A stretch of 63,051 bases of DNA, counting the filler, from Perkinsus chesapeaki ATCC PRA-425 (lineage: Eukaryota > Protista > Perkinsozoa), in NCBI GenBank assembly GCA_013115145.1. It is 4 parts of 4 records of this genome, joined end to end, with 100 filler letters (N's around TTAATTAATTAA, not from the genome) between each part and the next. Parts side by side here need not be neighbours in the genome. Positions count along the whole stretch, not along the records: positions 1 to 28,670 come from JAAPAO010000467.1; positions 28,771 to 30,129 come from JAAPAO010002019.1; positions 30,230 to 59,879 come from JAAPAO010000452.1; 1 more part is not named here. The stretch is one strand, 5' to 3'. The notes beneath the pieces are model-generated. The model was not told the DNA's origin. It saw nothing but the letters and a program-made list of their open reading frames with translations, and ran no database searches. Made by a program: the position numbers and the translations under genes. Each line of letters begins with the position of its first letter. The first letter of the stretch is position 1. Positions 5,918-45,300 of the stretch are shown here, piece after piece.

Positions 5918-8399
5918 ATGGCTACCAAAGACTATCAGGACCCCTGGTACTCTATATGGAGCTCCAACAATCGATATATAAATTCAATGATCGATAGAGT
6001 TGGCGGACAAGGTGTAATGAAGGCCCTTTTAATAGACAAGGACACCCTCCCGATTGTCAGCACTGTTTTAACTCAAACCGAAATACTCAACAAAGAAGTT
6101 TTTTTGGTACCACACTTCCCTCAGATCTTTGCTGGATATACCCCTTCCTTTCAGGTAGAGCCCCTAGAAGAGGCAATCGCCAACGAAGATGAGCCTGCGT
6201 CGAGCAGCATGCGCCACATGAAAGCTTGTATCTTTGTTCGACCCGCGAACCAGAACTTCCTAGCCCTCGCGAAGGTTCTAAGGCAGCCCATTTATAGCGA
6301 ATACCATCTCTGTAAGATACAAAAGAGGTCGGTTTGTTAACCTCCCGCGTATCTTTAGTTTTCTCAAACGTTGTTCCCCACAGTAGACTCTCCCAGCTTG
6401 CAGCCTGCGACGAGTACGAATGTGTCGCATCTGTCACCGAAGTGTAAGCCTCTTCGCCGTAGTCACTGCGCCCCAGATCTCTATCAGGTATGCCGACGTC
6501 ATTGCTCTGAACCCAGCTTTGTTCGCGTTAAACTCGCAATCGGTCGCTCAGCTTCACCGGGAACAAACCATGTGGACTGCTTTCGAGGAGAGTGTCTTCC
6601 AGCGCCAAGTTGATGGTATCTTCAGCGCGACCATCTCCCTAGGATGTCTCAAAAGAGGTATGTCTTCTACCATCTTCAACGTGATCCCTTCCTTCAGGTC
6701 GAGGCCCTGTCACCGCAGCCAGCTCCTCCGGGCTCACTCTCCCCGTGGTGCGGTATTCCTCGGCATCCCCATTGGCACGGAAGGTCGCCCTGGCCCTGCA
6801 GAAGCGGCTCGAACAAGACGAAAGCCTTTTCGAAAGTGTCGGGGGCTCCGCGGCAACGCCTGTGAACAGTGGAGGAGGAATGCTTGTACTGGTGGCCGAT
6901 CGAAGAGATGATCCCGTGACGCCTCTCTTAACCCAGTGGACCTATCAAGCCATGGTAGCAGCTTCGATGGTGATAATTATGCCACCGATCAGTGTTAGGT
7001 TCATGAGCTCCTTGGTCTGGAGAATAATCGTGTGATGCACCCTCTAGCGGTGGCAGGTGAGACAGCTGCAGGCTCATCGAAGGACGGCGGCGTCGAGGTG
7101 GTCCTCAGCACGGCCACCGACAAGTTCTTCCGGGACAATTACGTAAGTCGGTCGTGGTCGAGCTTAAGATTCTCCAACGCCCGAGTTCAGTTGAGCAACT
7201 TCGGAGATCTCGGAGTTCATATTAAAGAGTATGTGGAGATGTACCAGCAGCAGACCAAGAACCAAGCAAAGGTCGACAACGTCGAAGATATGCAAAGATT
7301 CTTGGACCAGTAAGAGGAGGAAAAGAAGGATGTCAGGTGCCGGGATCGAACCTGCGACCTCCTCAGATACCCGGAGTACCGCAAACTCAGCAGCAATGTG
7401 TCGAAGCACGTGGCGCTGGTTCACGAGATCTCTCGGATGGTAGAGAAGTACAATTTGATGGAATGCTCGGAGCTCGAGCAATCTCTTGCCTGTGATGACC
7501 ATATCAGTATGCATGAACAACTGAAAAGGGTTAAAGGTAATAAATACCGTCACCGGGAATCGAACTTGGGTCGTTATCAGCAATGATTGAGAATCCTCGC
7601 AACTCCAACTTGGAGCGTTTGAAGGTCTCGATTCTCTACGCCTTGCGCTTCGAGACCGACACCAGTGGCATACGTGAGCTCAAAGGCCTTTTGCAGCAGA
7701 AGGGTGTGCCTCCGGAGCAGGCAGGACCAATCCACCTTCCACCGTTGGTTACCGCATCTTTTAGGTCGGCCTCATTTCGACCATGCTGGACCATTTCGGC
7801 TCAGCGTCCCGTCTTCCTTATCCGTCGAGTTCCGGTGCAGCAGCGGCACTGGCACGCCGCTTGGGGTTCACCAGCGCTACCGACAACGTCTACACCCAAC
7901 ATCGATCACCGATTTCTATAACGGCAGAGCAAGCCATTAAAGGGAAAGTGAAGGAGCAGGATTATGTGACAGTGGTTGGCAGCAAGGGTCGAATCAACGG
8001 GGTTGAAAATATAAAGTAATAAAGGACGGTTTGGGGGTGAACATTGGCAACTTCAGGCCTTCGTTGGTGCTAGTGTTCATGGTCGGTGGCTGCACCTTTG
8101 AGGAGGCCAGGGATGTCGATGTCCTCAACGAGCAGTTCGTAGCTGCTTCGACAAATGGGCCATCTACGGACGCAAGGGGAACAGGCTCGCGGCCACCAGC
8201 TATAGTGCTGGGCGGGAGCACAGTCCACAACTCTAAGACGTAGGCCATCACCTCCACCCTGTCTTGGCGATACCTTCTCTTCAGTTTCCTGGCGGATGTT
8301 GCACAATTGTCGCGGTTACACGGCCCTACTAGCAGCGGGATCTTCGGCGGGCTTTCGTCACCGGTTGTCGGTGGGAGAAGCGGCGGTTTTGCTGAGTGA
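5918..8399 (+). CDS. VPS45: Sec1/Munc18-family vacuolar sorting protein VPS45 (multi-exon)
   Basis: MKALLIDKDTLPIVSTVLTQTEILNKEVFL, MRHMKACIFVRP, LLTQWTYQAM, YPEYRKLSSNVSKHV, ILYALRFE, VFMVGGCTFEEA, IVLGGSTVHNSKTFL. Confidence 0.93.
7331..7362 (-). pseudogene. tRNA 3'-half fragment, antisense, in the 57-nt VPS45 intron 7310-7366
   Basis: Minus strand reads GG-AGGTC-GCAGG-TTCGATC-CCGGC-ACCTGAC-A then TCCTTCTTTT, in exact tRNA 44-73 register. Confidence 0.75.
7545..7572 (-). pseudogene. tRNA 3'-half fragment, antisense, in the 44-nt VPS45 intron 7537-7580
   Basis: Minus strand reads GAC-CCAAG-TTCGATT-CCCGG-TGACGGT-A then TTTATT. Confidence 0.7.
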
Positions 8400-8670
8400 A
8401 TAATCTAGCCATTATTAACAACAATGAACATTTGTTTCTCACATTTGCTTTTTTGCACATGTACATTTTACTTGCAGATCCCCGTGGCCTTCGAGTTTCT
8501 GTCTAATACCAGCTGCAGCAGATCAGGATGAATCTGATTTTGCTTTCTGGTCTAAGGAAATTTCTTGATTATATTTCCGCATTGGAGCGCTTCGATCCTC
8601 GGGAAGTAGATGAATCTCTGCTTGCTAGTTTGTTATCGTAAAACTACTTTTTCTGCCCCCACCAGTATTG

Positions 8671-9234
8671 ATGGCGCCACATAAGAAGCAACAACAGCAG
8701 CAGCAGGCCGGTAACGCGGCGACGGCGGCGACCTCCGAGATGGTCAACGCTCGAACCAAGAACAAGGCCTTGAAGGAGCAGTTATCAAACCTCAATGTAA
8801 GTTGCCTGCCATCAGCTGGCACCATGGGGTGATACTGTTATGTTTCAGCGCATGACCAAGTCCGATGCTAAGCAGCTGGCTAGTCTCACAAAGGAGGTAG
8901 AGGATCTTCGTAATGCTGTGAAGGAACTGATGAAGTTGAGTAAGAGACCCGGTCAGAAGCCGACCAAGATGGAGGTAGCATCATCACTGGGTAGGAGGAG
9001 TACATCCACTGTGTTTCCTGTTAGTTGGACAAGGTCATCCCGGAGAGTGTTCGTGCGGAGGTCATCGACGCCGCCTATGCTCCGACGCGCTCGCCCAGTG
9101 AGGAGCGAGGCCGCCAACAACCGGCTGCTAATGGCAATAAGAATGGCCATAAGGCAGCTCCCTCCACCGGTGTCCGATCAACGCAGCCCCAGCAGCGTCA
9201 AGGGAACAACAAACGTGAGGAGGAGCTGATGTAA
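8671..9234 (+). CDS. Hypothetical coiled-coil protein (3 exons)
   Basis: MAPHKKQQQQQQ...KALKEQLSNLN|RMTKSDAKQLASLTKEVEDLRNAVKELMKL|LDKVIPESVRAEVIDAAY...EEELM*, with canonical splice sites. Confidence 0.55.
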
Positions 9235-10368
9235 AGCTTGATTTGATATCACTTGTGGGCATGGCAGGTTACAACAGCTCGAAGGTTGTAGCGGAGAATC
9301 AGCTTAAGAATATGTTGGGCATGCCACCAGCTCCCCCGAGGCAGCGCACTCAACCACAGGGCAAGAGGAATGCTGAGAAGCAAGCTAAACAAGGGGCACC
9401 GGATAACGAGTGAGTGACCCAGCGTTGTATTGTGTCCAACTGGATGCGATCGTTTCAGACTTGCACAGTCCATCCGAGAGAAACTTCGCCGTGCTAATAC
9501 AAAGGAGGAGGTCCGCGCTGCTACCAATATGGCAAGAGCTGTGGGGATGACGTACGAGGCCGGCCTCGGTGACAAGAAGTTGAGCACTATGGCTTAAGAA
9601 GCTGTCTAGCGGCGGCGGTTGTTGTCATCGTAGTCAATGACATCACCACTATTGAAGTTTATTCTGGCTCGCCTGGCCGACACTTTGCGGTGAATGAGCC
9701 ATAGTGGATGGATTGGTGATGTTAGCGATAACCACTACCAGGAAATAGTAGTTCCCTCCTATTCGTATTGATGGAAGCATTTTCTAGTCTATCTTATGTG
9801 GCGTTGTGTAGTTGGTTTATTAGAGCAAAAGGAGAGGCATAAAGCATAAAGGGGGAGGCGGTGATTGACCGAAACACTGTTGCAAACGCAACAACACTAC
9901 CGATGGTTACAAACTAGATGAGCAACGGTGAGAAGCAACCGTCACATGAAGTTCCGTTAAAGTATATCCCACATACTAAATGTAGTTGGTAGTATTAGCT
10001 TGTAATGCGATACTACTGTTACAATGCTTATCCGGACACATTACGGGCACCAACAGTAAGAGAAGAAGTACGACTCAGGGCTACATTGACAAGTCTTCTC
10101 ACAACCGGAACACGGGCTGTTCAGCTTTCTCAAATAAGATGGTTTATCTGGAATGTCACTCGACCCGATGAGGGCGATAATAGTGCAGATGAGGAGGAGG
10201 AAGATGTACTTGAACATCGTCAAAGGAGCTAACTGCGAAGGGAAACTTAATAGCTCAAAAATTGAGACCACTAGTTGAAAGTCCGACTTCGATTGAATAG
10301 TTGTACGTATTCAGCGCACAGTGCCACATGGCGCCTGGCGCCGACTTTGCGCCAGATGGGTGACATAC

Positions 10369-10426
10369 AAATTAGAATTTCCATTATCAGTTTCGCTAAA
10401 TTAGAATTTCCATTATCAGTTTCGCT
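10369..10426. repeat. Perfect 29-bp tandem duplication
   Basis: AAATTAGAATTTCCATTATCAGTTTCGCT occurs twice in a row. Confidence 0.9.
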
Positions 10427-12182
10427 CTTTGTAACGGCTTTTTCTCCGTAAGTAGTGACTATATAGTAGTCTGGCTTACATCGCTAGCTACGACGTTGCT
10501 CCTCCGAGTCCGTGGTGTCCTAAAAACATCGACTCGGGCTCGGGAGTAGTCGTAAGAGAGACTGCTCCATCTCCGGAGACGACTGCGGAAGCACCCCGTA
10601 GTAACTCGCAATTTGCACGCAATGGAACCCAAATGACCGGGGCCTCTGGAGTCCTACTTGGGAGCAGTCCAGTGCTCGATGGGGAGGATGCCTGGTTCCA
10701 AATAAAAGCTACTTCATTCACCATTTTGGTGTCCAGTTGTGGTCTCATAGTGGAGTTTGAACCAATTTAGCATGGTCCGAACTTCCCTGTGTGTTGTGCG
10801 GCAACTTGTGCCTAGAAGGCGGTTATCCCTTGTGCTCCACCTTCTCCATTGTCCATGCGTGCCCAGGTCGTGTAAGACGGGATAGTGAGAGGTAAAGAAG
10901 GAACGTTTGTAGATCTGCTCGTTGTCGTCTGGTGCTCATCATCATGTCATGATAATTCGTCTATTTAACGAATAAAAAGCAAGATCAACACGTTCGTGCA
11001 ACAAGGCTCTTGTCAGGGCAGAAGGCAGGTACGCGAGTTGAGTACGTGAGTCTGAGTCTTGAAACGGTTGCCCAGACTACCTCCCAAGGCCAGGGCGATG
11101 GCCCATCGCCGATGGGGCATGCCAGGCGAGCGCTGCCGTGCTTCCCCGTCTCCGAATATTGCTAAACTGAAGAAAATCAAGCTGTGTTGAGCTGCTCACT
11201 ACACTCACCGCAACCTGTCCAACTTGAGCAGGGCTCCTGCGCTGTGAAGTTCCTTCGTCGAGTAATTCAACGAGCAAAACGGGGGTATCGCAAGCGACGA
11301 GCCCACTGAAGATGGACGGAATTCAAACTCCGGATAGTCTTGAGTCAAGACTCTTGACAATGTTAGTTGCATTATGTTACGTTGCCTTCGAAGAATTACT
11401 AGGTTCTCTGAAACATTGGGCTTCCGATTGCAGGAGTCTGCCAGGGAAATGATTTCCCGGAAATCAAGGACCAATAAATTCAAATCCTTGAGGAGAATAG
11501 GGATTTGATGATTGGGCAGCCCGATTTGGGCTACAGGAGATCAGGTACATCCCGCTGGAGCAGACAGAAATGAACTTCCCAGGCCCTACAGAGATGTATT
11601 GGGGGGCACTGTCAGCTCCAACAAGTACAGTTCTCGTCAGAGAGCATGTTCAAGCAGGTGTACGCCGAGGGCGGAGAAGTTTATCGTGTGTTTGGCGGCG
11701 CCAAATTGGCGCGCGCCCGCATTGTGTCCGACTCGGACAGTCCGAGGGAGCGTGATTCAGGTTGTCCGTTACCTCGAAGCGGAAGCGAAGTCGAACGAGC
11801 GGCGCTCGTTTGACTTCGCTTCCCGACGATATGACACCGACATGGTTACAAACATTGGCACATGCACAGGTAACATGTGCAATGTTTGGTATCCACAACA
11901 TGCCGCTTGTCTGTCCTCACCCAATACTCCCATCTGACTGCATACGTGATTGCTTATAGATGACAGTGTAGCCGCTGCTTTCTAACCTTACTGCTCCTCC
12001 CCTCTTTGGAGGCTTTACCGACAAGGAAGCGCGTCGCACATTCTTCCAGACTTTAGAGGGCTATTCGACAAATCCAATTTCCGTGAATGTGTTTGATTCC
12101 GGGATTGTGGAGTGTAATCAACAGATCACCGAAGACCTCGAGCATCAGTCCAAGATCGTGGCTGAGCAGTACCACATAATCA

Positions 12183-12283
12183 ACATGTGAATTTCACATG
12201 TCGCAATGCCGACTATGTATAGTTTCACATTGTGAAACTATACATAGTCGGCACTGCCGGCTCGGCAGTACACTCGCCGAGTG
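12183..12283. repeat. Cluster of four consecutive perfect inverted repeats
   Basis: Stem/loop sizes: 9/1 (12183-12201), 23/1 (12207-12253), 7/3 (12253-12269), 6/1 (12271-12283). Confidence 0.92.
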
Positions 12284-12827
12284 GCAGTTCGCCAGTCGCG
12301 AACAGTCCATTCATTATGTTCGCTGGGAGAATCACCCGCGATGTTTGTAAATAGTGATGATCGCAGTCAGTTCTCCACGATGTATGCTACGGAACCGCGT
12401 CCTTGAGTGACTGGATGCGATTGTCGCCCGCTGTCAAACGGCGTTGAAGAATTTGCTCACGCTGTTATACCGTGAAAAGGTCGAAACGCTCAATTCGGCT
12501 GAAATCATTGATGTCGGGAGCATGGTCATCAGTATTGTGTGACATATATCAAGTGGCGTCATCATAGACTCAAAGTATGATACTTCTGCCTATCATAGGT
12601 AGGCTATCAAGCCCAACAGCTTTACCAGCAATAACCAAGCTTCCTACTCCAAATGATAAGAAGTATATTGGCCTGAAGTAGCTTGAAATGTATCATACAT
12701 CATGCATGTGACATGCATTATGTCACAGATTGAATGGAAGTGTACCGCTGCAACTAAATACTAACACAGGGTGAATGAGAAACATTTGGCGTACTATAGT
12801 CTGATCATGAATTGACATGCACTTTCA

Positions 12828-15800
12828 TCAAAGGCCTTCGGTTTTCTTCGGCTCCTCAGGGGTATGAGGAGCTGTCGTACCGCAGACACTCTCTGTATCC
12901 TCGCTCTGGTGGAAAGGCTGCCGATCACCAGGATAAACCTTTCTCGTAACCTGGTGGCCTGCAGGAAATAATATCATAATCTTGCTAATCTATTAGCTAT
13001 GATTCATTGGAAATGAGTCATTGCTTCATGAATGTCGAGGACATGTGAGGTCAAAGTAATCTCGTTCTCGTGCGATTCCATGAGGAGCCCTCTTGAGTCC
13101 TCCACTCACCTGAGGTCCGAGGTGAACGATGGGGCCTCCGGTGCAGCGATGCCCTGCTGTAACTGTTATTGGAGCCGCTGCCGGTCCTCATGAATTCCAT
13201 GCGAGTATCGTCATCCTCCCCCAGAGGCCCCTCAACCTCCTCCCAAGCCTCGATGCCTGTGCGAGCTCTTGGGACCTTCATCGCGCTTCTTCGAATACTT
13301 GAACCTACGGGAACTATAGTGAGTCGTAAGTCTCTGGATAGCAGCTCTACTCGACAATCCACGACCTCATGGTCACTAATACATTTACATTTCACTAATA
13401 TCATTTACGACAACCGAAGTTTGCGCACCATTCAAGTCGTGATATTTTTGTTGCATATTGGCGCCGTCCTCTTCATCCTCTGGAACGTGGAAGATGTCAT
13501 CGTCCTCGCCCAGATCTTCGTCATCTTCGATTGGCTCCTCCACACGCTCGGGAAGCTGCTGGCGTAGGGTCTCCAATGCGGCCTTTGCAGCGTCCTGATC
13601 CTGCGGTCTCCAGATAACCTGAACCCATAAACTGGCATTGCGTCTTTAACTGAACTCGTCACTCTTGTTTTTGTTCGCCCCCCACGGATCCCTCCAACTT
13701 CCGTTGTATATTCGTAGCCAATCTTAGCATTACCAGTCTTGTCGAAATCGAGTTGATGAGCACCCGTAGCGAAGCGGCGGCGTCTGAGTCTCACACACAC
13801 ATACCGTAAGATGAGGGCTAGGACAAGGCAGCCTCCAATGATACCAAGGATATGGAAAGCGTTGAGGCGGAAATAGACGTCTAGCGGCCCCGCGGCAAGG
13901 GTGAACTGTTCCATAGTGCCACAGCCGTCTGCGTTTGCATCATGACAATAGCAGAGTTGGAGAGTCTTTGTGGACGACCCAGATTTGCCGAAGTCGAACT
14001 CGCCGACAGAGCGATCCTCATTAAGCAAGATTTCAGACGGGTTACCGAGGGGTTTGGAACTGCCGTCACCACATGAGCCCTCCGCGAGAAGTACCGCTTG
14101 ATCGCCTTCTGTGAGAAGAATGCCTTCTATCTCGACTCGGCAGTCGGACTGTATAGGGCACCTGAGGACCACCGACGACCGCAATGGGCCAGAGATTATC
14201 ATGCCACCAATGGCGATGTTGAAGTGCTCCGGCTTGGTGCAGTTCCAACCATCTAGGCTGAATGCAATCCTCATACACGCACATATAGCCCTCACAGATC
14301 CGAAGCCGAACTGTTTCAATACGAAGGACCCATCCGGCTCTCGTCCGACAGGCTTCTCTACCACACTATCTTCGGAAGCCCCACATATCGTGTCATCTTC
14401 TTGAGAGGTCGATGCATAATTGGTTGTCGCGCCTGATGGCACGGAGACCGTAGTGAGGAATATGTCTGCCCCTTCGATGTCACCTACACCGGTAACCTCG
14501 CAGAGTTGGCCGGCAGCGCAAGGCAAGAACGGGTCGGTGGAGTTACCCTCTTTGGCGATATTCAGCGTCGGGCTGATGACATCGATCTCACCAAGATCTA
14601 CTAGAGCCCCCGCATCACCGTTTTCGTGGCAGCTACCAGTGCAGCCACATGCTCTGTATTTCCCCTCAGGCAACTGGCTGACATCAACGACGAGAGTACC
14701 CTCACCACGAGGATCTACGTCTGATACCATGAACACTTCGTCACTGCCTATGCTGCTGTTGCATTGGCGGCTCACCGGCCTAACTTCGATCTTCCATCCT
14801 CGAGTAGGTTGTCCTATCATTGTCACCGGCAATGTCGCCGTCCCCTTGTAGCGACCCAGAGCTGTGTGATACTCGCCAGAGCTCGGCTTGAACCCTTCAA
14901 CGTGGAGCCTGCCTATTTTGTGAGGAGACCGAGCTAAGCAGGGGTTTTCGACCCAGTCGGGAAGGCCAGTGAAGGGACAATAGCAGAGTACAAAAACGTC
15001 TGCACTTGCAAAAGAGGGCAAAACGAATATTGCCATTTGCTCATTATCGGTGATGGCTGACGCATTGACAATCATGTCGCCAAATGCCTCTACGACGATG
15101 TTCGTGCATGGCCGATCTGCACTATTGAGAACCTTAAGGCGGTCTCGACTATCGAGGCCGACGCCGTCTATGGAAACTGTACAAGTCTCGCCTGGTACGC
15201 AAGAGTGATTCACACCCTGCTCCACGGAGCCCGACACGATGAGGTCTCCGGCACGAAGATGATAAGAGGCCTCGATCACGCAGTCGCTGTCATCCAGCCC
15301 AGCCGCACAATAGCAGACAGTGTAATTACCGCCTCTTGGCATGGCTCTTGGAGGTATGACTACCCCCCATGCCACCGAGCGTCCCTGGTAAAGGGAGACC
15401 GGTAAGCTCGTTCGAACGGCAGCTTGGGGGAGATTGCTGCAGGAATCGCCGACGGCAATGGTGACCCGGTCTCGACGGCTAAGCCCAAAGCTAGCTCCCG
15501 TGTAGTTAAATATGCAGTTGGCGTCCATCGCCCCACAGATAACGGAATCATTGGAGGTTTGATCTATACCAATAGAGCGGACTATGCCGGCTTTCACATT
15601 GAACTGATCAGCGTATAAACATCGGTCATTCTGCTGCTCTCTTTCTGCTAGCATTCGGGGGTCCGTTGCGAAAGAAGCACAGACGCATACTGTGTAGGTG
15701 CCAAGGACACCGAAGCGGTAAGGATTCAGGAAGGACCCTAGCGTCGGGCTGGAGAAGGAGTACCCCGTGATGGTAACCCGCTCATTGCCTGGTAAATAAA

Positions 15801-18800
15801 GTACAGTTCGGGCTAGAGCACACATCCTTGCCTTCCGTGGGTGGATCCATGCTCCGCACAATTAGACTATCGTTTGCAGGTGGACATGATACGCCGCGAG
15901 TCGCCAACAAGCGGTCAGTGTCCTTCACCATTCCCGTGCCCGAAATACGCATCCGGCATTGCGAGCCGATTGTGCATTCAAATCTGCAAACGTACATGCT
16001 GAATGCTCCAACTCGCGTTGCAGCAGAGGCGCGTTAGTTACGTAGGGGAACCCTCATCGGCGGGTAATCTCACCTTTGGTTGCCATACACACCATTCACT
16101 GTAAGGTTCCCCACTAGCGTTTCGACCGCTCCACCGCCACCGCACAATGTCCCCGGACTTGTGCAATAACACAGAGAGAAGCTTCCCGGTTGAGCAGGGA
16201 AGGATAAGTGAAAACCGGTACTGGCCTGCGCCGATGTCTGAAGGAGCAGATCGTTGAGCGAACGGTAGCGATCGGTAATGTCACCAGTTGTATCTGGGTT
16301 ACTCCATACGGTTGCGATGGAAATGCCGATAGAGCAAGCGCCGTGGAATTGGCACAGAAGGGAGTCGTCTTCAATGCGAGCTTATCGATAGGTGACAGCT
16401 GATACCTGATCGGCGAGCATCTTCGCTTGAACTCTTGACCTGGCCAGCGAAGCTCACCCATTTATGAGTATATTGCAGGGTTGGCCTAGGACACAGACGT
16501 GGTCCTGATTTAGAAGCGGACCGATAACATTCAGAGCTCCACTGAAGCCTGTGAACTTGGAAAGGGTATCGCACCCAGTCTTATAGTGGATCACAGCTGA
16601 ACACCAGCAAAGGGTAAATGTACCTGAGAACGCGCCATCCGACTCGAACTAAAGAACAGCGATGCCGTCACCTATTTGCGGAAGGCTTGTGCGCTGCACA
16701 ACCGCGGTAATCCAGCGACCCTCCCCGTCAGCTTGCTTGACAGGGATAACTTCTTCCTCATCGACTTCATCCGGGCCTCGCGGAACCTGAGTCGTCCAGT
16801 TTAGTGCTGGCTGACTAAGCCCCAGCTGACTCCGCATTGGCCTGGACTCGCGCCCGTCAACAAAACCAGCTTGTCTTCTTTTGACAAGCCGTAACCTTTG
16901 ATCGATATGCTGCAGTCTCGTGCCTGCCGAATCCGCATTCTCGCTACCAGAGCATTAGACAACGCTCACTTGGGTACAGGAAAACACCTGGCCGGCTGAT
17001 GGCCCTAGCACGTCAATGCGCCCAAGAGGTACGGAATAATTATCGGCTGTTGGAGTCCCTCGGGGGCAATCTCCGAGACATATGCAAATTCCATACGAGC
17101 CGACAACCTGGAAAAGATCACCAGCTTCACTTGACTTATTTGCCCTCTTCGATACGTAAGGGTATCCAAGGTCGAAGTTTGACGTGTGCTCCTCGTCTCC
17201 GAAGTAGGCCACTTCGATTGGCGCATCCTTCCTCCCTCGCCATCGGTCATGCGCTGTGCTATTGTGGTCCCCACAAGATGGCGGCATCTCTCCCTCAGAG
17301 GACGCGCGAAGTACAACCACTCTACTCGCTGTTGCCTTCTTTGAGAAGCCTGTCGTGTTGACATAGTACGAGCTCGAAGAATCCCAAAGCGCCTACTTCT
17401 GACGTCGATAATGCATTTGCCTGTTTCGCTTTGAGCAGTGTACACAGTGACCGAGCAAGACCAGACAGAATAGGCCCTTGCAGGGCCATAGACGGTCAAG
17501 CTGCCAGCTGCCGTCACGAAGTCCTCGTCACGTGTTGGCTGGCATGGGCGGCCCTCCCCCCCGCTGCAGTAGCAAATACTGAGCTGTATGCCACGCTAAA
17601 ATGGAGAAAATTTCCACTGGCGTGAAAATGGACTTAGATTACCCAGAAGGCAGAGGAGTCCAGAGACACCTGTGCGAGGTTGGCATAGGTCGAGGACGAG
17701 TCCACAGATACATCGACAAGCCTACCACTGTTGATCTGAAAGTTGGTGATTCAAGTCACCGTTGCCAAGCGTACTGGAGCCGCCACGACGCCTACAGTGG
17801 ACTTCAACTGCGGGTGCAGCGCATAATATGTATTATGGCAGTAGTTATTACTGCTATAATTAACCACTGGGCCAGTATTACTAATAATACTGGCCTAATA
17901 CTGGCCTAATACTGGCGTAATACTGGCCCAGTGGTTGAGTTAGTGGTCAAAGCGAGTGTATTATACACGTAGGTAGGTAGTGGGCGAACTTCCGTAAGAC
18001 TAGCGACTTCAGAAAATCCAAGAGGCTCGTTTGGGTTGAGATCAAGACAAGATATGATCTTGCAAATTCTCACGGACGGTGAAGCGATAAAGAAGAAGAT
18101 TTTTACATCAGGAATCAGACGATCTCCAGGGCACTCTTGGTCGAAGGTGACCAGCTTGACTTTATCGTACTGAGTTAACCTATATCCTTGTATAGTGAAG
18201 TTGCAGCCATCCTCATAGGCCACTCCACATACAACATGCCTCTGGTCAATATACGCTCCTCGGACCTAACCGCGCACTCCTCGAGCTCACACCCGAGCTG
18301 CTTGCTCACATGCACCGTTATGCCATAACCTCTGTCGTATTCTCCCCAGTCTTCGCACGGACCTTTGCCAAGACAGAAACACGTGGTGTACACCGAAGGC
18401 GTCTTCACCACTCCAACTGAGAACACAGCCTCAGGGGACTCCTTCACGAGCATCCCAGCCACCCTTGTCAACATGGCTCGACTGTCGGTCGCGAGGCTGC
18501 TGCAGTTAGTGCCGTAAACCCTATCGTACATGACTACTCGGTGACCCCAGGTGAGACCAAAACCTTCGATTCTCAAGGTGCATGGGACCCCAGCACGGCA
18601 CTCAAGCTCTTGGTCGATGCTGATGTCTCTGGCTGGGGAAGCCTCCAATGGTCCAGGCTCGGCCCGAACAACTAGCGTTCCGGGGACAGGCATACAGCGT
18701 CCTTGACCGAAGCAGTAGCAAACACTCAGGTTCCTCTGGCCACGGTACGGGATGACCTCGCCAGCGTAGATACCAAACGATACCAGCTGCCGCTCACTGC

Positions 18801-20796
18801 TGGCAACAACAATCCTTCCGGGATCTGTCGAGAACAGCCCCGACGTCACGACGTCACAGGATTCGTTTAACAGTTTAGCTTTAGCGAAGCCATCCATTGA
18901 TAAGGCACCGCCCTCAAAATCTACTATACATTCCTGTGACGTGACGCACGTCCAGTTTCGTTCGTACTCTTGTTCGTTTGTGAGACCCTGAACGGTTAGA
19001 CTGCCCAGAGGGAATGCGAAGTCCTCCCAAGAGCTACACTGTCCTGTGTGCGACCTCAAACACAGACAAGTTGCGTAGACACCAGCGGCGCGAGGCACCG
19101 TTTCCAATACGGCCGTCGAGTTATCGCCGACTCCAGCTTCATAAAAAGTTTTAACATCTGCCCCACACTGGTCGCCCTCAATGGCTCTGAGCCGGTCTCC
19201 TCGCTCTATCCCCATGCCTTCAAGTCGAACTGTACACGGTCCGATCGGTGAGCAGGTGAAGTTGTTGGCCCCATCAAGAGGGCCGCGGATCTTCAGGATT
19301 CCAAGAGGCAACGAAAAGCTCTGTGGACCGTTGCAGCCTCCCGCCGAAGAGGCCATGCAGTAGCAGATCGATAATAAACCAGGAGTGTCAACCATCGCAG
19401 GAAAGGTAAGGGTGCTGGCATCGCCTTCACCGAGGATCGAACCAGGGATCGCTCGCGGCTCTACTATACGTTGTCCGCAACCGTCATTGGAGAACCTTAT
19501 TGCATCGCCCTTGGCGGCGTCATCAACCTTGATATCAGTGGTCTTGATAGAGCAAGGCAGGCCTTTGTAGCACACAACGCTGTCCCCTCCCGACGCCAGC
19601 CTTGGGCCTCTCATAGATATCATTAAAGGTAGCTTATGCGCGGTGTTATCATCACAAGGCGGACTGCAACGACACACTTCATACTGGCCGCCGGGAACTT
19701 GGCCTGGGAGGAGCCTTATGTCCTGGCTCCGAGGCCTCATAAGGCTTCCGTGAGGGGACAAGCTATCGGCCCCAGACGCGAGGCAATCCGCCCGAGGCTC
19801 CACCAGACGGATTCCCGTGTCGAGGCCAACCAAAAATCCCTCTATGGGAACCAGACAGTCGTCGATGGCATCGCATTCAACTGACTTGTTATTGCGGAGC
19901 TCCACGGAAGCCACAGCGACCTCCTCCATACCGCCATAGCAAAGCTTGTATGTCCTCGCAGGCAACCATTCGAGCAACTGCTCGTCCAGCACTATAGAGC
20001 CGACGCCTGTCGTGGCCTCCACCTGAGGTGAGGCAAGATTTCAACAACACACGGTGGGAACCTCACAGTAAGGATAACCGTGGCGAACGGCAGGGGGATC
20101 GCCGACTTGCAGTCTTCCTCAGTTTTCACAATATCGATCGAAGTGTCGCTACGAAGGCCTTCCGCTTGAATGCCATCAACAATGCAGACTGCCTGAGCCG
20201 GGATGCCGTCCTATGTAGTTCGGATTCCCCACCTCATCCGCGTGACACTCCACCAGGCCCGGTCGGCCCAGTAAGGGACCCTGGACCCACGCTCTCCCCA
20301 AGGACATGGCGTACTCTAACGGCCTCACACATGGCGAGAACAACTGGAGACAAATACATATCTAAGAGGAAAGACGATAGCCACTTTCCTTCTGCCTTCG
20401 CCTCACTTTATAACTGCCAACCCTTGGGCCACTAGGATCGGCAAAGTCCATCCTGTAACGATACCATAGGTCGCCAGTGTCCTCGGGGAGCTCCTCGTCC
20501 AGTAGTAGCTCCGCGAGGTAGTTCTCGTACTCCCCTGGTGCGCCACAGAATGTGACGTCATCTACGAGACTCAGATAAAGCGATGATTGCAGCTGGCCGA
20601 AATCTGGCGGAAGGCTGAGCAGACAGTCTCTGCCTTCAACACAGGAGGCGTTGACCTCGGTGATGCGCTCGAAGACTTTGGACAGTAGCATCTCGATGAG
20701 ACCAGCCGCTGATGCTGCATCAGTCATGTTGATGACCTCCCCCTGAGCGGCAACGGCAACCAGTAGCCATAAGTAGTGAGATAGGACAGGAAACAT
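12828..20796 (-). CDS. Giant type I membrane/surface protein with many Cys-rich beta modules of about 130 aa
   Basis: Signal peptide MFPVLSHYLWLLVAVAAQG. Repeated C-x4-C-x-V-x-I-x-G...C...CYC...C...G-x-L-x-V-x-GP modules across ORFs 18175-20022, 16955-17517 and 13432-15861. TM helix FHILGIIGGCLVLALILRYVCV and an acidic cytoplasmic tail. Confidence 0.8.
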
Positions 20797-21575: not shown

Positions 21576-21644
21576 AGTCTCTGGTAGCTTATGTCAATTA
21601 ACAACTCAATCCACCATCTTCTCCGAAATGTATCGTCGTAATCC

Positions 21645-24600: not shown

Positions 24601-26299
24601 CTGCTAAAGCGAAAAGTCACGCGCCAAGAGATATCGCGAAATCCGCGATGTGACTCCTCGAATTTGACGTGTGAAAAGATCTGCCTTAAGATTCTCGCTC
24701 TCTCGATTGCGTTGTTTTTCTCTCAAGTCTTACTATTCCCTTTTCAACTTATACTATACGTTGATACGTCTAATGGCCCAGCAAGTCCCCTTTATTAAGC
24801 ACTGCTTACGCATACTGACACGGTCAACTGCTGCGCATCCCTCAAGTCCCCCTCCCGATTACGTTTCGGCCCCGCCTCCGTCTTAGCCGCCAACTGTTCC
24901 TTCACCAAGGCATGCACACAATGCCAGAAGTCCGCATCCTCTCCCTTCCCTCTATCTCGTGCTGCCCGCTCGAGGTCCGTGATGTGCTCGGCGGAAGCCT
25001 CCAATTCGGCGGCCGGCAAACTCTACAGAAAAAACAATAATAACATCACCCAGGATAGAACCCACGACCTGTGGATGCAATTCCGGCTGCTCTACCATTA
25101 CACCCAAGAGTCGCAAAATAACATGACATGTCCCTCGAAGGGAGGCATTTGATGTCTCCTTTTTGACTAAGACCACTTTCTACAACCATATTAACCGCAT
25201 TCCCCCCCGATCATGATCCTCGAGGAATACACTTCGCTAGATGCCTCCCCGTTTCTACCGCTATCGTATCCGTGACCAGCGGAGATTCCAGTATAGTATA
25301 ATCTTCATAGGGGTACTTCTCCCTCCCTCTGGTGGCCAACAAGAGCTCCTTATAAAGGTAATCTTCCAAATGCTCTGTACTCGTTTTAATACGTAATGAA
25401 CATCTCAATGCTGCTTGGGACTGAATGAGAGAAACCGATACCAAAGATTCTTAAGAGGTCGGAACGATGTCACAGCCGGAGTAATACAAAGTAAAGACAT
25501 CGATGAATATGTACCTGCCTATCGATAAGTGAGCACCACTTGTACATGAGAACTTGAAGGTAAAACTTCCAACCCATATTTTTTCATCAGGACCCGAAAC
25601 GGTTGATTAGTTTGCATTCGCTTAGTCACGATGCGATGTTCTAATTGAGGAAAGTCGAATGTCCCCAGAAGGAGTGCATTCCTTTTGCAATCTATTTTCT
25701 CACGAACTTCCAGCTGTATCTTCGCATTCAGACCCGCAGAGAAAATTCCCGCGAGGCTACATGAACCTCTTACTACCACTACTCGTTTTCTCCTATTATT
25801 ACAATATCGAACTTCTCCTCCTTCGCCAGCCAGTCCTTGTACTCATCCTCCATCATTTCCCTTTCTCTTTCACTCCGCTGCTGCTCGAGCAGACTCTCCT
25901 CAGCGGCTCGCTCTTCTCGCCGTTGTCGAATTTGGACGACTTCATTTAAATTGGCTCTGACGAAAAACGATCATCGTCAGGTTCGAACCCACAACCTCCT
26001 GAACCACAGCCATGCCTCCCACCACTCCACCATTACTTCGCTTGCTCCCGTGCTTCACTCGATCGTAACGGCCGGACCCCCGCGGCCTCTTGGAACTGCT
26101 CCTTCTTCTTCCATCTAAACACCAGCTGCCTTCAACCCCCCCAGCTCCCGAGCTACTACCTAAACGTCGAGGCGAGGTTCGAATCGCCGAAGGGATTGTT
26201 GTCATTTGTGTAGCCCAGCGAGGTGCTCAACTCCGCTTCCCTCACTTTGGCCCGTTTAGCATCTCGATGATGATGAGTCGACGAGGAAGAAGTGGCCAT
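21645..26299 (-). CDS. CACTIN: Cactin (spliceosome-associated factor), multi-exon
   Basis: GYTNDNNPFGDSNLASTF, WKKKEQ..., QAALRCSLRI, DADFW, YRPRKPKFYNKVKTGYDWNKYNQTHYDKDTPPPKRVMGYRFNILYPDLID, and C-terminal ILRFSAGPPYEDIAFKIANKEW...FKRDRYRR*. Confidence 0.93.
23820..24110. repeat. Degenerate minisatellite of about 50 bp in a cactin intron
   Basis: CCAATTGCGCA(G/C)TA recurs at about 23828, 23879, 23928 and 23982, with decayed copies near 24042 and 24091. Confidence 0.85.
25041..25112 (-). pseudogene. Heavily decayed full-length (72-nt) tRNA relic in a cactin intron, sense orientation
   Basis: GACTCTT-GG-GTGTAATGGTAGAGC-A-GCCGG-AATTGCA-TCCAC-AGGTC-GTGGG-TTCTATC-CTGGG-TGATGTT-A. It keeps tRNA length and register with A- and B-box-like motifs, but the stems are broken. 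Followed by TTATTGTTTTTTCTGTAG (the acceptor). Confidence 0.6.
25968..25997 (-). pseudogene. tRNA 3'-half fragment, sense, at the 3' end of cactin intron 25957-26036
   Basis: AGGTT-GTGGG-TTCGAAC-CTGAC-GATGATC-G-TTTTT-CGTCAG| then exon ANLNEVVQIR. Confidence 0.75.
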
Positions 26300-26347
26300 A
26301 AGAAAGGAAGAGCTGCAATTAAATTACATTACTGCATTCCACCAAAG

Positions 26348-30173: not shown

Positions 30174-30185
30174 TTAATTAATTAA
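30174..30185. other. Artificial six-frame-stop contig linker
   Basis: TTAATTAATTAA centred in an N gap. Confidence 0.97.
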
Positions 30186-30423
30186 NNNNNNNNNNNNNNN
30201 NNNNNNNNNNNNNNNNNNNNNNNNNNNNNCTGAGTCGCTCAAGAGACACCCAAGCCTGAATTGAACCCGGAAATCGTCTATCACTTGCCTAGAGTCCATC
30301 ACCCGCAGTACCGGGAGCGAACGCGGAGTAGACGAGAAAAGTGGCAGGGAAAGTAATAAAGTGGCGAGCGGAGAAAAAGTGGCGCGGCAAGAAAAAAAGT
30401 GGCGGGAGAAAAGAAGGAGAAAA

Positions 30424-30450
30424 TGCCCGACCCGGGGATCGAACCCGGAC
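30424..30450 (-). pseudogene. tRNA 3'-half fragment with perfect T-arm
   Basis: GT-CCGGG-TTCGATC-CCCGG-GTCGGGC-A-TTTT. No complementary 5' acceptor strand upstream. Confidence 0.75.
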
Positions 30451-30531
30451 GAAAAGTCCAAGACGCAGCGAGTAGTTTCGTGGCGCGCTATCTGACATCT
30501 CCGTCTTTATAAACGGGTATGTCAACTCAAG

Positions 30532-33336: not shown

Positions 33337-33783
33337 TTGTATTTCCTTCTTCATTGGGTGTATGTTACTATTGATAATACTTCCTCAGGGCAGGCAGCAG
33401 CAGTATTCGACGACCTAGCTGGGTGTGATGTTGGTGTGCAAACGGATGCTATGGGAGAGCTGGATCGTTTAAGAACAGAACTAGCATTTGAGAGACGTCG
33501 AGCTATAAGTCTTGAGCGGCAATATACCAGGTTATATAGGGAGTCGGTGGGAAAGGTCGCGGGTTCGAATCCTGGCTGGAACATTTTTAAACAATTTTAT
33601 CTGATCGTACTAGTTGCAGAGTTGAAAATTATTGCTTGTTCTATTAGGTCTGAAGTTGATCGCCTCGATATGATAGCTCGTAATAATACTCTAGAAGTTG
33701 AGATACGCCGGTTGGAGCAGCAACTGGCACATAACAGGGACTTCCACTGTATCCAAGCGACCAGGGAAAGTAGTAGGACATAG
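33337..33783 (+). CDS. Hypothetical coiled-coil exon(s)
   Basis: DVGVQTD...LDRLRTELAFERRRAISLERQY...SEVDRLDMIARNNTLEVEIRRLEQQL. The middle AT-rich part is probably an intron. Confidence 0.4.
   Translation: MYFLLHWVYVTIDNTSSGQAAAVFDDLAGCDVGVQTDAMGELDRLRTELAFERRRAISLERQYTRLYRESVGKVAGSNPGWNIFKQFYLIVLVAELKIIACSIRSEVDRLDMIARNNTLEVEIRRLEQQLAHNRDFHCIQATRESSRT
33554..33583 (+). pseudogene. tRNA 3'-half fragment (3' end resembles Val), probably intronic
   Basis: AGGTC-GCGGG-TTCGAAT-CCTGG-CTGGAAC-A-TTTTT. Confidence 0.75.
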
Positions 33784-36390: not shown

Positions 36391-39300
36391 GTTTTCGCAT
36401 CACTCGAACTTCGAGTCGCAGAGAAAAAGCTTGAGGTTGTCGCACCTCGGGAGCCATTGTATTTTAGTCAGCAGGCCTTTGGTTTCTTAAGTGAACCCTT
36501 CTGGTAGAAATAGGATCCCTGGAAACTAGATAGATTCATTTTCGATGAATCATACTGGTATTATTATATAACAATATATTACAGCTACTGCTACAAGGGT
36601 TTCGTAGTAGATATATCTATAATGTGATATTTTATGTCGTTTTTTCCCTCAGGTGGGAGTGATGATGAGCATACTCTCACCACCTTACGAGAGCTGCTAT
36701 CAGCGGTAACAGCCCCGAATAGTGCAGTGCATGGCGAGGATCTTATTAAAGGGGTTAAGCTCTGTTTTGAGGTGAGAGAAAGATATTTTTATATCAACTG
36801 AATGACTTGTTACAGGTTCACCGATCGCCGAAGTCGTCGGAGTTGGCGCAGAGGACAGCGCAGGCGGTACTAACCCAAATACTGCATGCCACTGTACAGA
36901 GGGCCGAGATGTCTCCAGGTGATATTATAGCTGAGGCGCAGAAGGTAATAAAGAGGGGTGCTCAACGCTGATGTATTGGTGACGGGTTGAAGGTGGTTTA
37001 AAATATGGTGAAGGTGTTAAATTATAAAAATCAGAGTCAGAGTGTTGAGATTGATAATTGTCTGGTTTATGTGGTATTCTGATGATGAGGTGATAATGTT
37101 GGATTTTCCATACATGGTAATTTTACTCAAAGCGGGATATATAATTTTTAACCGCGCAATTTTCGACGGTTTCATATACATTTACTGGGCAAATGAGATA
37201 TGCATGATCATTGGAACTAAGATAGTTTGAAGACCAGTGACGAGAATTCGAATAATATTGAGAGAGTAATCGAAAAGGATTGGTAGGTCGTATAATTTTG
37301 TAACTGTGATATATAGTGCTCCTGTCGATTAGCGTTCTCTCAGGCGAAAGCGGCATCGGTGGATGAGTCTACCACAAGAGAGCCGAGTCCATCAGCGTCA
37401 CCATCATCGAAGGAGGACAATATGTCTGAAGGGGGAAGGGAGAGGCAGGCGGAGGAGTGGATTGATAGTCAGGTAGTGAGGCAGGGTCGAGACACTCTGC
37501 GACTTGTACTTAGCAAATATAAAAAACAGCTACTTTCCGTTTACAGCTTCTAATTATAATGGTTCTCGCCTTTCTTTTGCCCCTCTCACTGGATGTGCAA
37601 TTTGAGTGTGGCATTTTGGGAATTTGTGAGTGAAATATAATGAGGGGGAAGAGTGTTATTAAATATAATTACTAGACCGGATCAAACCACAGCGAGTGGC
37701 CGAGGGGTAAGGAAGAGGTGTGGTCTCTGTGACGCTTGCTGAGCTGAGGGGACAGTGCAATGATTAAGGGTCAATTAGAGGTGATTAACGTTGATGAATG
37801 ATAATATACAACACGCAGACGTTCTAGAAATAATAGCCCATAAAAACGTATAAGTCTAGCTGCTAAAATGTTGAAAGGTTCATTGTGAAGGAAACTGTTG
37901 TTAGTATTATTCTGAGAAGATTGAGGTAGAATTATGTTACCTAAGGGCAATTTTTTGCGCAGAAATGTACAACACAATTTGTCCCTTTTTTGTCAGGTTG
38001 GGCAATGGCTCGACGAAGCAGTAGCGAAGGTGGATCCTTCAGCCCCCAATGAGCGAGGCGAAGCCCCTAAGAAGTTTGGTTTTTGTATTGTGTGTCGGAA
38101 ACCGGCACCTCATTACTGTATAGACACTAAGGATCCGGTGTGCAGTAAAGCATGCAAGGAGATCAACTTGCAAAGGCGAAAGGTAACCATGGGAAGTAGA
38201 GTGTATTATTGCTGGTTGTTGAGTGCGTCAGGAAGTGAATTGTTTCATAGGGAGGCTCTGTTAAGCAGGAGAGGATATAGACGGAAACCTTAGGGAGTTC
38301 CCTTGTGGAATCTGTTGCACCTGGCGTTTGGTATGAATCGTGATAATAGCAGATTTTAGCAGGACTTTGTGTAATTTTTGTGTAAGATCATTTGGGCTGG
38401 TCAGTGGGCTGGCTAACAAAATTTCGTTATAAAATACGCATTTCTGGAAAAGAAGTCGCCAGCAGTTAAACAGCCTTTATTATTGTTATCAGGTAGTTGA
38501 CCACTGCCCTCCGATAGAGTCTGAGGAGGAGGGAGCCCCAACTCTGAGTAACGGGGAAAGATCACCTATTAATGACGGTGTAGATGTTGATGCCCGAATA
38601 GCCGTGTACCTGGATGATGCACTGAAGATCTTCTCAACGTTGTGTAAGTGGGGGGAATGCTCTTTTGTATTGAGTACATTGCTTACCGGTTTAATAACGT
38701 TCACGGGCGGTTTATAATTTCATACCGCTCTTTCCTCAACTTTTGTTGCTAATAATATACAGGAATCTTTTTCATAGGTACCATCTCCTTGTATGGTACA
38801 TTAGAGCCTCCAGCGGAAGGAGCCCAAGTGGACCCTTCCTCCACCACCGATCCCTTAGTAGGCATTCTATTTTCATTATTTCGATGAACATATTTCTATT
38901 TTGGATCAGGCTGTGAAGACGAAGCGTTTGAGTCTGGATATGGTCCTGTGCGTCATCAATGGTTCCGGTGATAATTTGAAGACAAACCCAGCATTTATTG
39001 AGGAAATAAAGTAGGTCGTGGGTTCGAACCCCGGCGGGGTCATTTTTCTTGACTTTTAGGACACGTTTGATGTACTCGATTCTGAGGAATTGTGTGTCTC
39101 CGGTGCCTAAGATTTTTACTTTGGCACTGCAAGTGTTCGTTGCTGTTGCGACCAATCCGGATTTAAAGGCGCACATCAGCACTCAGATAGGAGTGTTTGT
39201 GGAGGAAGTCTTCAAGCGAATATTGGACTCGGGCAACTCGAGCTATCAGCACAAGCATAGAGTCTTGCAGGTAGGAAAGATTATTACAACTTATCATTCG

Positions 39301-42300: not shown

Positions 42301-45300
42301 AAACAACCGGAAGAACCATCGGAAGCCGAGATAAATGTAAGGAGAAATGCGCTGCCTGGGACTCGAACTCGCGGTCTCTGGGTCTGTGCTTGCCTACTCG
42401 ACGAATATAATGTGACCCTCTTCAGGCCAGTAAGGATTTAGTTGAAGGGCATCCTGAGATCGTTCCCGCGACCGACGCTATCTTCCAGAGGTACGTGGCT
42501 CCAGCCGTATGGCGTGACACCTCCAAATGCCCGTCTTCGTTAAACCTATGTTTATTTTTTTCAATTTGCACTACTCATTATGTCTTGGCTTGAATTGAAA
42601 TGCAAACTCGAAAATTCGAATTCAGAAATCGCCTCCAGCGAACTTGTTATCCCACACGCTTGCCGATCAGATTCACCCCTTGTTCAGGTCTATCAATCTC
42701 TCCAACGGTGAAATCATAGTGTTCGTTGAGGAGCTCTGCAGCCTCTCCTCGGCCGAGCTAGCGGTTGTCGACAACCCTCGAGTCTTCTGTTTGCAAAAAC
42801 TTGTCGAAGTCGCCGACATTAACATGTCCAATCGAATCCGTTTGGTTTGGTCTCGGATTTGGCGGGTGCTCTCGGCCCACTTTGCTCAAGTAGCCCAGAG
42901 CAAGAACCAGCAGTTGTCCATGTACGCAATCGACTCTCTGCGCCAACTGGCGTTGAAGTTCCTCCAGAAGGACGAGCTTTCGAACTATCATTTCCAAGTG
43001 GAATTCTTGCGACCGTTCGAAGCCGTGATGGCATCGTCGGAGAGCTCTCGAGAGGTGAAGGAGTTAATTCTGTCGATTATGGAGTCCTTTGTGGCCTCGG
43101 ACGTGACCCGATCAAATATGAAATCTGGTTGGAAATCTGTTTTCCATGTCTTATCGCTGGCGGCTACCTCTGGTGGTGACAAGGTTGTCGTTGAGATGGG
43201 CATGAGAATCGTCACCAGATTGCGGGAAGACTACTTCGACACTGTGTGTGTTGAAAATATGCGGGACTATGTCCGAGTGCTGGTGGGGTTTGCCCAGTGC
43301 ACTGCTGGGGGGTTGGAGGTATCGATGAAAGCGATGCAGTATTTGCAGGACTGCATAGGTAGGCTTAATACTTTCTCATTACCTTTAGTTGATACTCAAA
43401 TAAAGCGCGTAATTGATATTGGACGATTCGGGCGTCTTTTGATCATCGGTTCTACTCCCGCCATGCTAGTGTATGCAATGCAAGGGTATCACAATATAAT
43501 ATAGTTAATTGATTCCTGTCTTGGTGGTAGTTTTGCTCTACTAGGGAAAGATGTCTTCTCGGGATCGTCTACAAAATATCTTTATGCTGCGAGACTCGCA
43601 CAAATCAAGACTCCGAAGTTTACCCCCAGCAGGGTTATCTCTGGGCACTGTTCGAGCTCACCTTGAGCTCGTCGAGTGCATTCACTTCCTGTCAGATTAC
43701 CTGGCCGATCCAGACAACCAGCTGCCTCCTATCCAATCCTCGTATCAGCAGACTTTGATACCCGGAAGTAGGACGACTACTTCCTTTCACTTTTCATACG
43801 GTGAATTAGGCACGCCCCAGTCGGGATCGACATTGCCTACGACGGCTTCGCCGGGGAGAAGGGAAGTTGCGTTGGCGACGAGCGCACAGCAGCAGCAACC
43901 TGCGTTGCACTGGTTTCCGGTAAGGCTTTATGATCGTGGCTGATGGGAGGAGGGGACCGGCTTCCTCACTCCCACCAGGCATGCTTTGATTTACTCTGTA
44001 ATTCGCTGCGGAGGTATTGGTAATGGTCGTCATTTTTATTAATCTGGATAAAATATTGTTTGAAATTATAACCCTGATATGTTATCATCTCATTTTCAAT
44101 ATTAATACCCATAGGTCCCATTTGGATGCCTATATGCCCATGCTGTCATTTCTTCAGATCCTCCACGGTTTGGAAGTTCTGGTGTTCGACAGTCGAAGAG
44201 ATGTTCGCACCTCAGCGATCGATAAGCTATTTGACTGTCTAACCTCACAGATCGATGACTTTGACAATGATACTTTACTCATGATTTTCAATGGGGTAAG
44301 TCGACTTCGCCGGGGAGTCCAGGAAGCCAAGAATCTGTGCTACATCGGTGTTTATATGGTACATTATAACCTTGTCATTTCAAGCTCAGACATGCCGAAC
44401 TAACCGCGGTTCGATGAGCATGCTGCTCTTTAAGGTTTTTCGTGAGGACCATGCGCTCTTCTTACCCAGCTTACATTTTTCCGGAGAATGTCGAGTGTTG
44501 GAGGATGATTATTGTTGACTCAATAGCAATGATTAAACGGAATCATCAGTTTGAAAAAATAGTTACCAGTCGCACCTTCTTGGTTGTAAGTATAGTTGTT
44601 GCCTTCCAGGTACTGTCGCCTTTGTTCGATGACCTACTACATCTGCTAACCCCAGGCAATCGGCCGCCAGCCCCTCCAGCTGAGAGAGGCGCTACTGAGC
44701 AGGGTGTTACCAGCAGTAAGATGCATCTATACGGATACATTAACGCGCCGTAGAGACATAGTTTTTTGTCAAAGTGTAGTTGAACGAAGTAGTAGTAAGA
44801 TACTTTTTCGAAATTTATCACGTCCAAGTTCCGGCAATGTGAATTTCGTACCGCTCTTTTCTTTCAAATCCGTTTACGGGCATGTTTTTGCGAGGCTCGT
44901 GGAGAGAGATCTCATGGAAAGATAATCGTGTTAGCGCAGAGCAGGGTGGGCACGAACACATGTCTTGGACCCCTTGGACGATTCCACAACTATGCGCATT
45001 GTACTGTAATGAGCTCCGTTCGCCGCTGTGGTCGAAGGCCGGTATCCCACTTTGTGATAGACTATCATGCTTGCCTATATTCGTCCCTCAGGCACTTGCC
45101 TATCTGCAGTATCAGCCCTCACACGCTTGGTTGACAGACGATTCGATCGGTTGGGGTTCCTACTGCCGCAGGTCAGTTGGTCAGCAGCCCTCAGCTCCGA
45201 TACCCTGCCTTCAGGTCCTCACATTACTAGGAGCTTGCATTCATCATGAGAGTGAAGCTGTTGCTCGCATAGGTAACGTGCTTGTTATTAGCCTCCCATA

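What the first reader, a model, noticed from the sequence alone, without database searches (positions are those of the whole stretch)
7310..42425. A set of short spliceosomal introns built around tRNA 3'-halves with many different acceptor strands
Eight tRNA-derived segments occur at 7331, 7545, 25041, 25968, 30424, 33554, 39013 and 42348. Seven are 27-32-nt 3'-halves; the one at 25041 extends to a full-length relic. All follow the exact tRNA 44/46-73 register: variable loop (AGGTC, AGGTT, AGACC or GAC; only GT survives at 30424), 5-nt T-stem, TTC(G/T)A loop, 5-nt stem, 7-nt acceptor strand and discriminator. A genomic T-rich trailer follows directly, and none has CCA. Six lie in introns of VPS45, cactin and Sec7 whose boundaries are supported by in-frame protein homology; the other two are probably intronic. 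Each has a different acceptor strand, so this is not one SINE family. The seven 3'-halves break near the same point, at the variable loop. Both orientations occur. Candidate explanations are all inference: (i) intron birth from, or shrinkage around, dying intronic tRNA genes; (ii) retained B-boxes acting as extra-TFIIIC chromatin sites; (iii) footprints of an element that targets tRNA 3' ends, analogous to integrase att duplications. I know of no described system like this, but could not search the literature.
Basis: partly seen in the sequence, partly recalled or inferred. Interest (0 to 1): 0.88.

Follow-up and report, generated by a model that had tools for sequence, protein, structure and literature searches.

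The report
Shrunken tRNA genes inside Perkinsus introns
Several short introns of the shellfish parasite Perkinsus carry the back ends of dead tRNA genes, likely left as introns shrank around tRNA genes that once sat inside them, and in the one intron compared base by base with a related genome the tRNA promoter box is conserved, so it may still serve as a protein-binding site.

Summary
The window is Perkinsus DNA. All eight tRNA-derived segments are present and exceed chance (7 observed vs 0.26 expected). Six lie in homology-supported GT-AG introns; 33554 is probably intronic; 30424 is not shown to be. They are not all halves. The window holds a graded series: an intact tRNA-Pro gene in a 132-nt intron, a full-length relic (25041), a near-full His-like relic (25968) and true 3' halves. 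A second, divergent Perkinsus genome has the 39011-39059 intron at the same place and length. Its variable loop and T-arm differ at 1 of 22 bases, against 11 of 37 third codon positions, while the acceptor strand differs at 3 of 7. B boxes are intact while T-stem pairing is broken, and there are no target-site duplications. Best reading: intron-resident tRNA genes died, the introns shrank, and the terminator (doubling as splice signal) and B box were kept, the latter probably as an extra-TFIIIC-like site (binding untested). Intron birth from tRNA halves is not shown. The scan reported this pattern before in other Perkinsus DNA (20 notes); nine literature searches found no description.

The parts
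3240..3311 (-). Intact tRNA-Pro(CGG) gene inside a 132-nt intron (3350-3219) of an IPK-like/C2 gene, same strand as host, 21 nt from the acceptor AG; starting point of the series
   Evidence: ARAGORN and Rfam 49.5 bits; spliced alignment to P0128, 81% identical
7310..7366 (+). VPS45 intron, 57 nt, phase 2, holding an antisense tRNA 3' half (7331-7360); 21-nt trailer reaches the donor
7537..7580 (+). VPS45 intron, 44 nt, phase 1, holding an antisense 3' half with a short variable loop (7545-7573); the 8-nt trailer is the complement of the donor
25023..25258 (-). Cactin intron, 236 nt, with a full-length decayed tRNA relic (about 25041-25112; Cys-like by my reading) at its 3' end; the only segment with a broken B box; not alignable at 85% to the second genome
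   Evidence: P0126 and P0127 give one intron; the P0125 model splits it at the variable-loop GT
25957..26036 (-). Cactin intron, 80 nt, almost entirely a His-like tRNA relic lacking only the 5' acceptor strand; T-run 11 nt from the AG
   Evidence: second genome aligns through it with 7 nt missing at 25970-25979
30424..30448 (-). T-arm, acceptor strand and T-run without a variable loop; upstream of a likely ATG at 30519; not shown to be intronic
33554..33588 (+). tRNA 3' half with T-run, in a probable intron (33531 or 33543 to 33647) of a coiled-coil ORF
   Evidence: no homologue test
39011..39059 (+). Sec7/BIG1 intron, 49 nt, phase 2; the 3' half starts at base 3, the donor overlaps the variable loop and the terminator forms the pyrimidine tract; same length and 44 of 49 bases identical in the second genome
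42337..42425 (+). Sec7/BIG1 intron, 89 nt, phase 0, with an antisense 3' half (42348-42377); 11-nt trailer reaches the donor

Best explanation
These segments are likely the remains of tRNA genes that lived inside introns and died, after which the introns likely shrank and kept mainly the variable loop, B box and T-rich terminator, with the B box probably still acting as a TFIIIC-binding DNA site. Shown: the tRNA derivation, the intronic position of six relics and one intact tRNA gene, the graded loss of the 5' part, and conservation of the T-arm sequence at one orthologous site. Inferred: deletion towards the common 40-60-nt intron size removes the 5' flank and 5' half first. The terminator survives because it serves as the pyrimidine tract (sense) or as donor-adjacent sequence (antisense). 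The B box survives through DNA-level selection, which fits both orientations and the loss of stem pairing. Untested: TFIIIC occupancy and any effect on chromatin or splicing.
For: Graded series in one window: intact intronic gene, full relic, relic minus 5' acceptor strand, halves. 7 of 60 homology-supported introns hold tRNA sequence (1 intact, 6 relics); 29 of 60 are 60 nt or shorter. In those 7 the discriminator lies 8-21 nt from a splice site. In the second genome the 39011-39059 intron has no gaps and differs at 5 of 45 non-GT/AG bases, against 11 of 37 third codon positions (binomial P 0.003-0.01). Variable loop plus T-arm differ at 1 of 22 (P 0.004-0.01; the change stays within the B-box consensus), the acceptor strand at 3 of 7. 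Nine longer stretches of cactin, mostly intron, could not be aligned at 85%. B-box invariants mismatch at 1 of 64 while 11 of 32 stem pairs are broken; uniform decay conditioned on detection gives this jointly in at most 0.1% of simulations. In 59 introns perfect B boxes are enriched (7 matches at 5 sites vs 1.25; 0 of 1000 shuffles) and A-box/D-arm pieces are not (6 vs 9.4). 18 other contigs of run X1 match the 39013 half at 80% or more; the upstream consensus of 13 fits a mix of whole tRNA genes and pieces without a 5' half. Precedent: 47% of C. elegans tRNA genes and 95 of 211 pseudo-tRNAs are intronic (PMC4999229).
Against: Sequence-level conservation rests on one orthologous pair, and part of that intron is splice signal; outside the donor the T-arm test is weaker (1 of 18, P 0.015-0.03). 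Given 9-13 broken pairs, so few B-box changes still arises in 1-17% of simulations depending on the assumed decay rate. The His-like relic has lost 7 nt in the second genome and the Cys-like relic does not align. G opposite G at 49:65 in 4 of 8 segments (0 of 24 reference tRNAs) is not explained by simple decay. The 5'-half scan has about 60% of the power of the 3' scan, and a 5'-only remnant does exist outside the modelled introns at 550-575. Reference tRNAs were mostly phage genes, not Perkinsus genes. In C. elegans, pairs of intronic pseudo-tRNAs and host genes are not conserved between species. The series could be several unrelated processes placed side by side.
Confidence: 0.55

Rival explanations
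1. tRNA 3' halves were inserted as such (5'-truncated cDNA of pre-tRNA, or DNA fragments captured at breaks) and created or refilled introns, using the latent GT of the variable or anticodon loop and the terminator as splice signals.
For: In 39011-39059 the donor overlaps the variable loop and the T-run is the pyrimidine tract. A public gene model uses the same latent GT as a donor at 25068 (P0125). Three short introns begin or end within 2-7 nt of the variable loop. Pre-tRNA ends in the same U-run, so the trailer and lack of CCA do not exclude an RNA intermediate (established knowledge).
Against: Junction repeats are only 0-2 nt in the six relic introns. The 39013 intron is already present in the second genome. 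Whole and near-whole relics and an intact intronic gene exist. An introner survey lists none for two Perkinsus species (PMC9860276 supplement rows).
Confidence: 0.2
2. The segments are neutral decay products of intronic tRNA genes; only splice signals are under selection and the 3' bias reflects what is easiest to recognise.
For: Small introns are largely splice signal. Power for 5' halves is lower. Two cactin relics are not well kept in the second genome. None of the six relic-bearing stretches folded reached a z-score below -1.6.
Against: 1 of 22 changes in the T-arm region against about 30% at third positions; B-box intact with stems broken; no A-box excess in introns.
Confidence: 0.13
3. 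The segments are chimeras made by recombination at the B box, either ectopically between tRNA genes of different types or by a tRNA-targeting element that leaves an att-like duplication.
For: Non-pairing T-stems with G49:G65 in 4 of 8, P below 0.001 under uniform decay. Perkinsus has tRNA-targeting Dada transposons and hundreds of tRNA gene copies (PMC3706591).
Against: Flanks of related loci are close to unrelated (agreement 0.44). No element lies beside the six homology-supported intronic segments. The Dada sites described for Perkinsus Ile and Tyr genes are in the A box.
Confidence: 0.11
4. Chance B-box matches picked out by eye.
For: B-box-like words are common (191 matches at 7 of 8 or better), and one coding hit scores 19 bits.
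Against: 7 vs 0.26 for the full register; 9 vs 0.38 for an independent profile.
Confidence: 0.01

Closest known systems
Extra-TFIIIC (ETC) sites of yeast and the CeRep3 putative tRNA-pseudogene ETC sites of C. elegans (PMC3395662, PMC6950938; passages read)
   Same: B box kept without a functional tRNA; conserved between related species (one site here); tRNA-pseudogene origin and intronic location as in the worm.
   Different: Here the sites fill most of a 44-89-nt intron and keep the variable loop, acceptor strand and terminator in tRNA register. Yeast sites are intergenic with a 10-base 3' extension; worm sites keep both boxes. TFIIIC binding is untested here.
Intronic tRNA genes and pseudo-tRNAs of Caenorhabditis (PMC4999229; passages read)
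   Same: tRNA genes and pseudogenes in introns in both orientations.
   Different: Worm pseudo-tRNA/host-gene pairs are not conserved; here one half is conserved, and the remnants supply or abut splice signals of minimal introns.
Introners (PMC9860276 supplement rows; PMC12130899 term search)
   Same: A recurring sequence type forming most of many short spliceosomal introns.
   Different: Copies are not near-identical (9-24 of 30 bases shared), there are no target-site duplications, the tested intron is shared between genomes, and the survey lists no introners in P. olseni or P. marinus.
Tailless tRNA retropseudogenes (PMC5322556; passages read)
   Same: Partial tRNA copies with a preferred break region.
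   Different: Those keep the 5' end, lose the 3' end and have target-site duplications; these are the reverse.
Dada transposons of Perkinsus marinus (PMC3706591; parts 1-2 of 4 read)
   Same: Same genus; tRNA genes as substrate.
   Different: Dada inserts in the A box (Ile and Tyr families) with a 6-7-bp duplication; the break here is near the variable loop with no element or duplication.

Membership tests
Intronic tRNA pseudogenes | Derived from a tRNA gene, in tRNA register | tested here: met
Intronic tRNA pseudogenes | Cannot form a tRNA | tested here: met
   No ARAGORN or Rfam call; 11 of 32 T-stem pairs broken
Intronic tRNA pseudogenes | Located in a spliceosomal intron | tested here: met
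   6 of 8 by spliced protein alignment; no RNA junction evidence
Extra-TFIIIC (ETC) sites | B box without a functional Pol III gene | tested here: met
   7 of 8 have all 8 invariant positions
Extra-TFIIIC (ETC) sites | B box conserved between related species | tested here: inconclusive
   Met at 1 site read base by base; the relic with a broken box did not align, and the His-like relic's box could not be read
Extra-TFIIIC (ETC) sites | TFIIIC bound without TFIIIB or Pol III | not testable with these tools
   No occupancy data; presence of TFIIIC in Perkinsus was not checked
Extra-TFIIIC (ETC) sites | Yeast-type 10-base 3' extension of the B box | not tested
   Described in PMC3395662; consensus not compared
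Introners | Many near-identical intron copies | tested here: not met
   Pairwise identity 9-24 of 30 in the tRNA part; related loci differ at 5-7 of 36-43 bases and have unrelated flanks
Introners | Target-site duplication or terminal repeats | tested here: not met
   Junction repeats 0-2 nt
Introners | Recent gain, absent from sister genomes | tested here: not met
   39013 intron present in the second genome; both cactin introns appear present; VPS45 and 42348 introns not resolved
tRNA-derived SINEs | One master with A and B box head, body, tail and target-site duplications | tested here: not met
   No shared body or tail, A box missing from 6 of 8, no duplications
Tailless retropseudogenes | 5' end intact, 3' end truncated, target-site duplications | tested here: not met
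   Opposite polarity
Dada transposon footprints | Break in the A box with a 6-7-bp duplication | tested here: not met
   Breaks lie near positions 39-49
Split or permuted tRNA genes | A partner half that restores the cloverleaf | tested here: inconclusive
   T-stems do not pair and no 5' halves were found in introns; the whole genome was not available

The most novel reading that the evidence does not exclude
In Perkinsus, tRNA genes act as intron-making units: a copy landing in an exon is spliced out through its latent GT donors and its terminator, then shrinks to a 45-nt intron that keeps a TFIIIC-binding B box. The genome would then carry thousands of intron-embedded TFIIIC sites (about 5,000 if this window's 8 per 63 kb held across 43.5 Mb), a new route of intron gain and a dense chromatin-anchoring system in the sister lineage of dinoflagellates.
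Probability: 0.2. Interest if true: 0.82.

Novelty: new variant of a known kind. Interest (0 to 1): 0.55.

Why it matters
About one in ten introns examined here (6 of 60) carries a tRNA remnant, and at one site the B box is conserved between genomes while the tRNA structure is not. If general, Perkinsus offers a natural series showing how tRNA genes turn into conserved non-coding elements within minimal introns. It would also give thousands of candidate TFIIIC sites in a lineage next to dinoflagellates, whose chromatin is unusual. It makes two questions testable by genome comparison alone: whether tRNA genes can seed introns, and where extra-TFIIIC sites come from. It also matters for annotation, since the variable-loop GT appears to have misled a public gene model of cactin.

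Tried and rejected
No whole genome was held, so no genome-wide scan. No RNA holder was listed. Runs X6 and X7 (RNA by guess, under 90% alike or few pieces) did not bridge any tRNA-bearing intron; X6 joined exons exactly across the control intron 25421-25802. A metagenome scan with cactin P0126 gave 9 loci, best segments 32-62% identical, none usable as a Perkinsus orthologue. Rfam on 24900-26150 found no tRNA match. Folding of six relic-bearing stretches gave z between -1.55 and +0.33, so no general RNA-structure role is supported. The hit at 19446 was rejected as coding sequence without a T-run. The 33554 host protein could not be tested: no Pfam match and the Atlas did not hold it. For the profile, 5 of 27 phage tRNAs were dropped: 1 without a T-loop match and 4 with long variable arms; because the T-loop was required, the reference set has no B-box mismatches by construction. 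Two weakly supported introns were dropped from the Sec7 C-terminal set, and the intact Pro intron was left out. Look-ups of earlier notes by place and by sequence returned nothing. The Perkinsus draft-genome paper I tried by a recalled DOI is not held, so its text and supplements may bear on the novelty claim; only two of 11 Perkinsus rows of the PMC9860276 supplement were seen, from a file cut when stored.
Full report
Source. No whole genome was held. The window's VPS45 and cactin exons match Perkinsus chesapeaki proteins closely (cactin exons 97-100%), and its Sec7/BIG1 exon is 86% identical to P. olseni. It is therefore Perkinsus DNA, most likely P. chesapeaki. ARAGORN and Rfam find four real tRNA genes (three Gly-CCC, one Pro-CGG) and none of the eight segments.

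Noticed in passing
window 1-575: Tandem tRNA-Gly(CCC) array with a 183-nt period: three genes, the third with acceptor mismatches, and a fourth unit at 550-575 that matches the first 26 nt (25 of 26) and then breaks off, a 5'-only remnant.
   Followed up: partly
window 29981-29994 and 30442-30455: Perfect 14-nt inverted repeat 447 nt apart that overlaps the 30424 T-arm and encloses assembly gaps and a short tandem repeat; no target-site duplication seen.
   Followed up: partly
window 30246-30275 (-): A second, more decayed B-box T-arm 178 nt from the 30424 segment (11.6 bits), a spacing close to the Gly array period; possibly a decayed tRNA array.
   Followed up: no
window 25069-25179 (-): The public P. 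chesapeaki cactin model P0125 has a 37-residue exon here that the P. marinus and P. olseni proteins lack; likely a misprediction caused by the relic's variable-loop GT.
   Followed up: partly
window 5987-9594 (+): The public VPS45 model P0121 (854 aa) continues into a downstream stretch that P. olseni P0122 (594 aa, partial) lacks; it may fuse two genes.
   Followed up: no
run X2 laid on window 6600-26400 and 38925-39145: X2 holds a second, divergent Perkinsus-like genome (exons about 88% alike); runs X6 and X7 carry the same species label as X1 but are under 95% alike, and X6 shares letters with that second genome.
   Followed up: partly
window 11620-12020: Raised contig depth and loose ends in X1 and X2 mark a repeated element here that is not tRNA-like.
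   Followed up: no
window 60830-62749 (-): Intronless 639-aa ORF that looks to me like a hAT-type transposase (recalled resemblance); no Pfam match at E 0.01.
   Followed up: no
window 13432-20886 (-): Long exons (809 and 621 aa) of a cysteine-rich repetitive protein, probably a surface protein; no Pfam match.
   Followed up: no
window 53694-54890 and 58664-59500 (-): Two ORFs that look paralogous (shared 'LDH.YP.KYYC.FD..LQSVCLAKH' pattern); the first has no Pfam match, the second was not scanned.
   Followed up: no
window 17862-17936: Strong local hairpin or inverted repeat, seen as a sub-threshold Rfam microRNA match.
   Followed up: no
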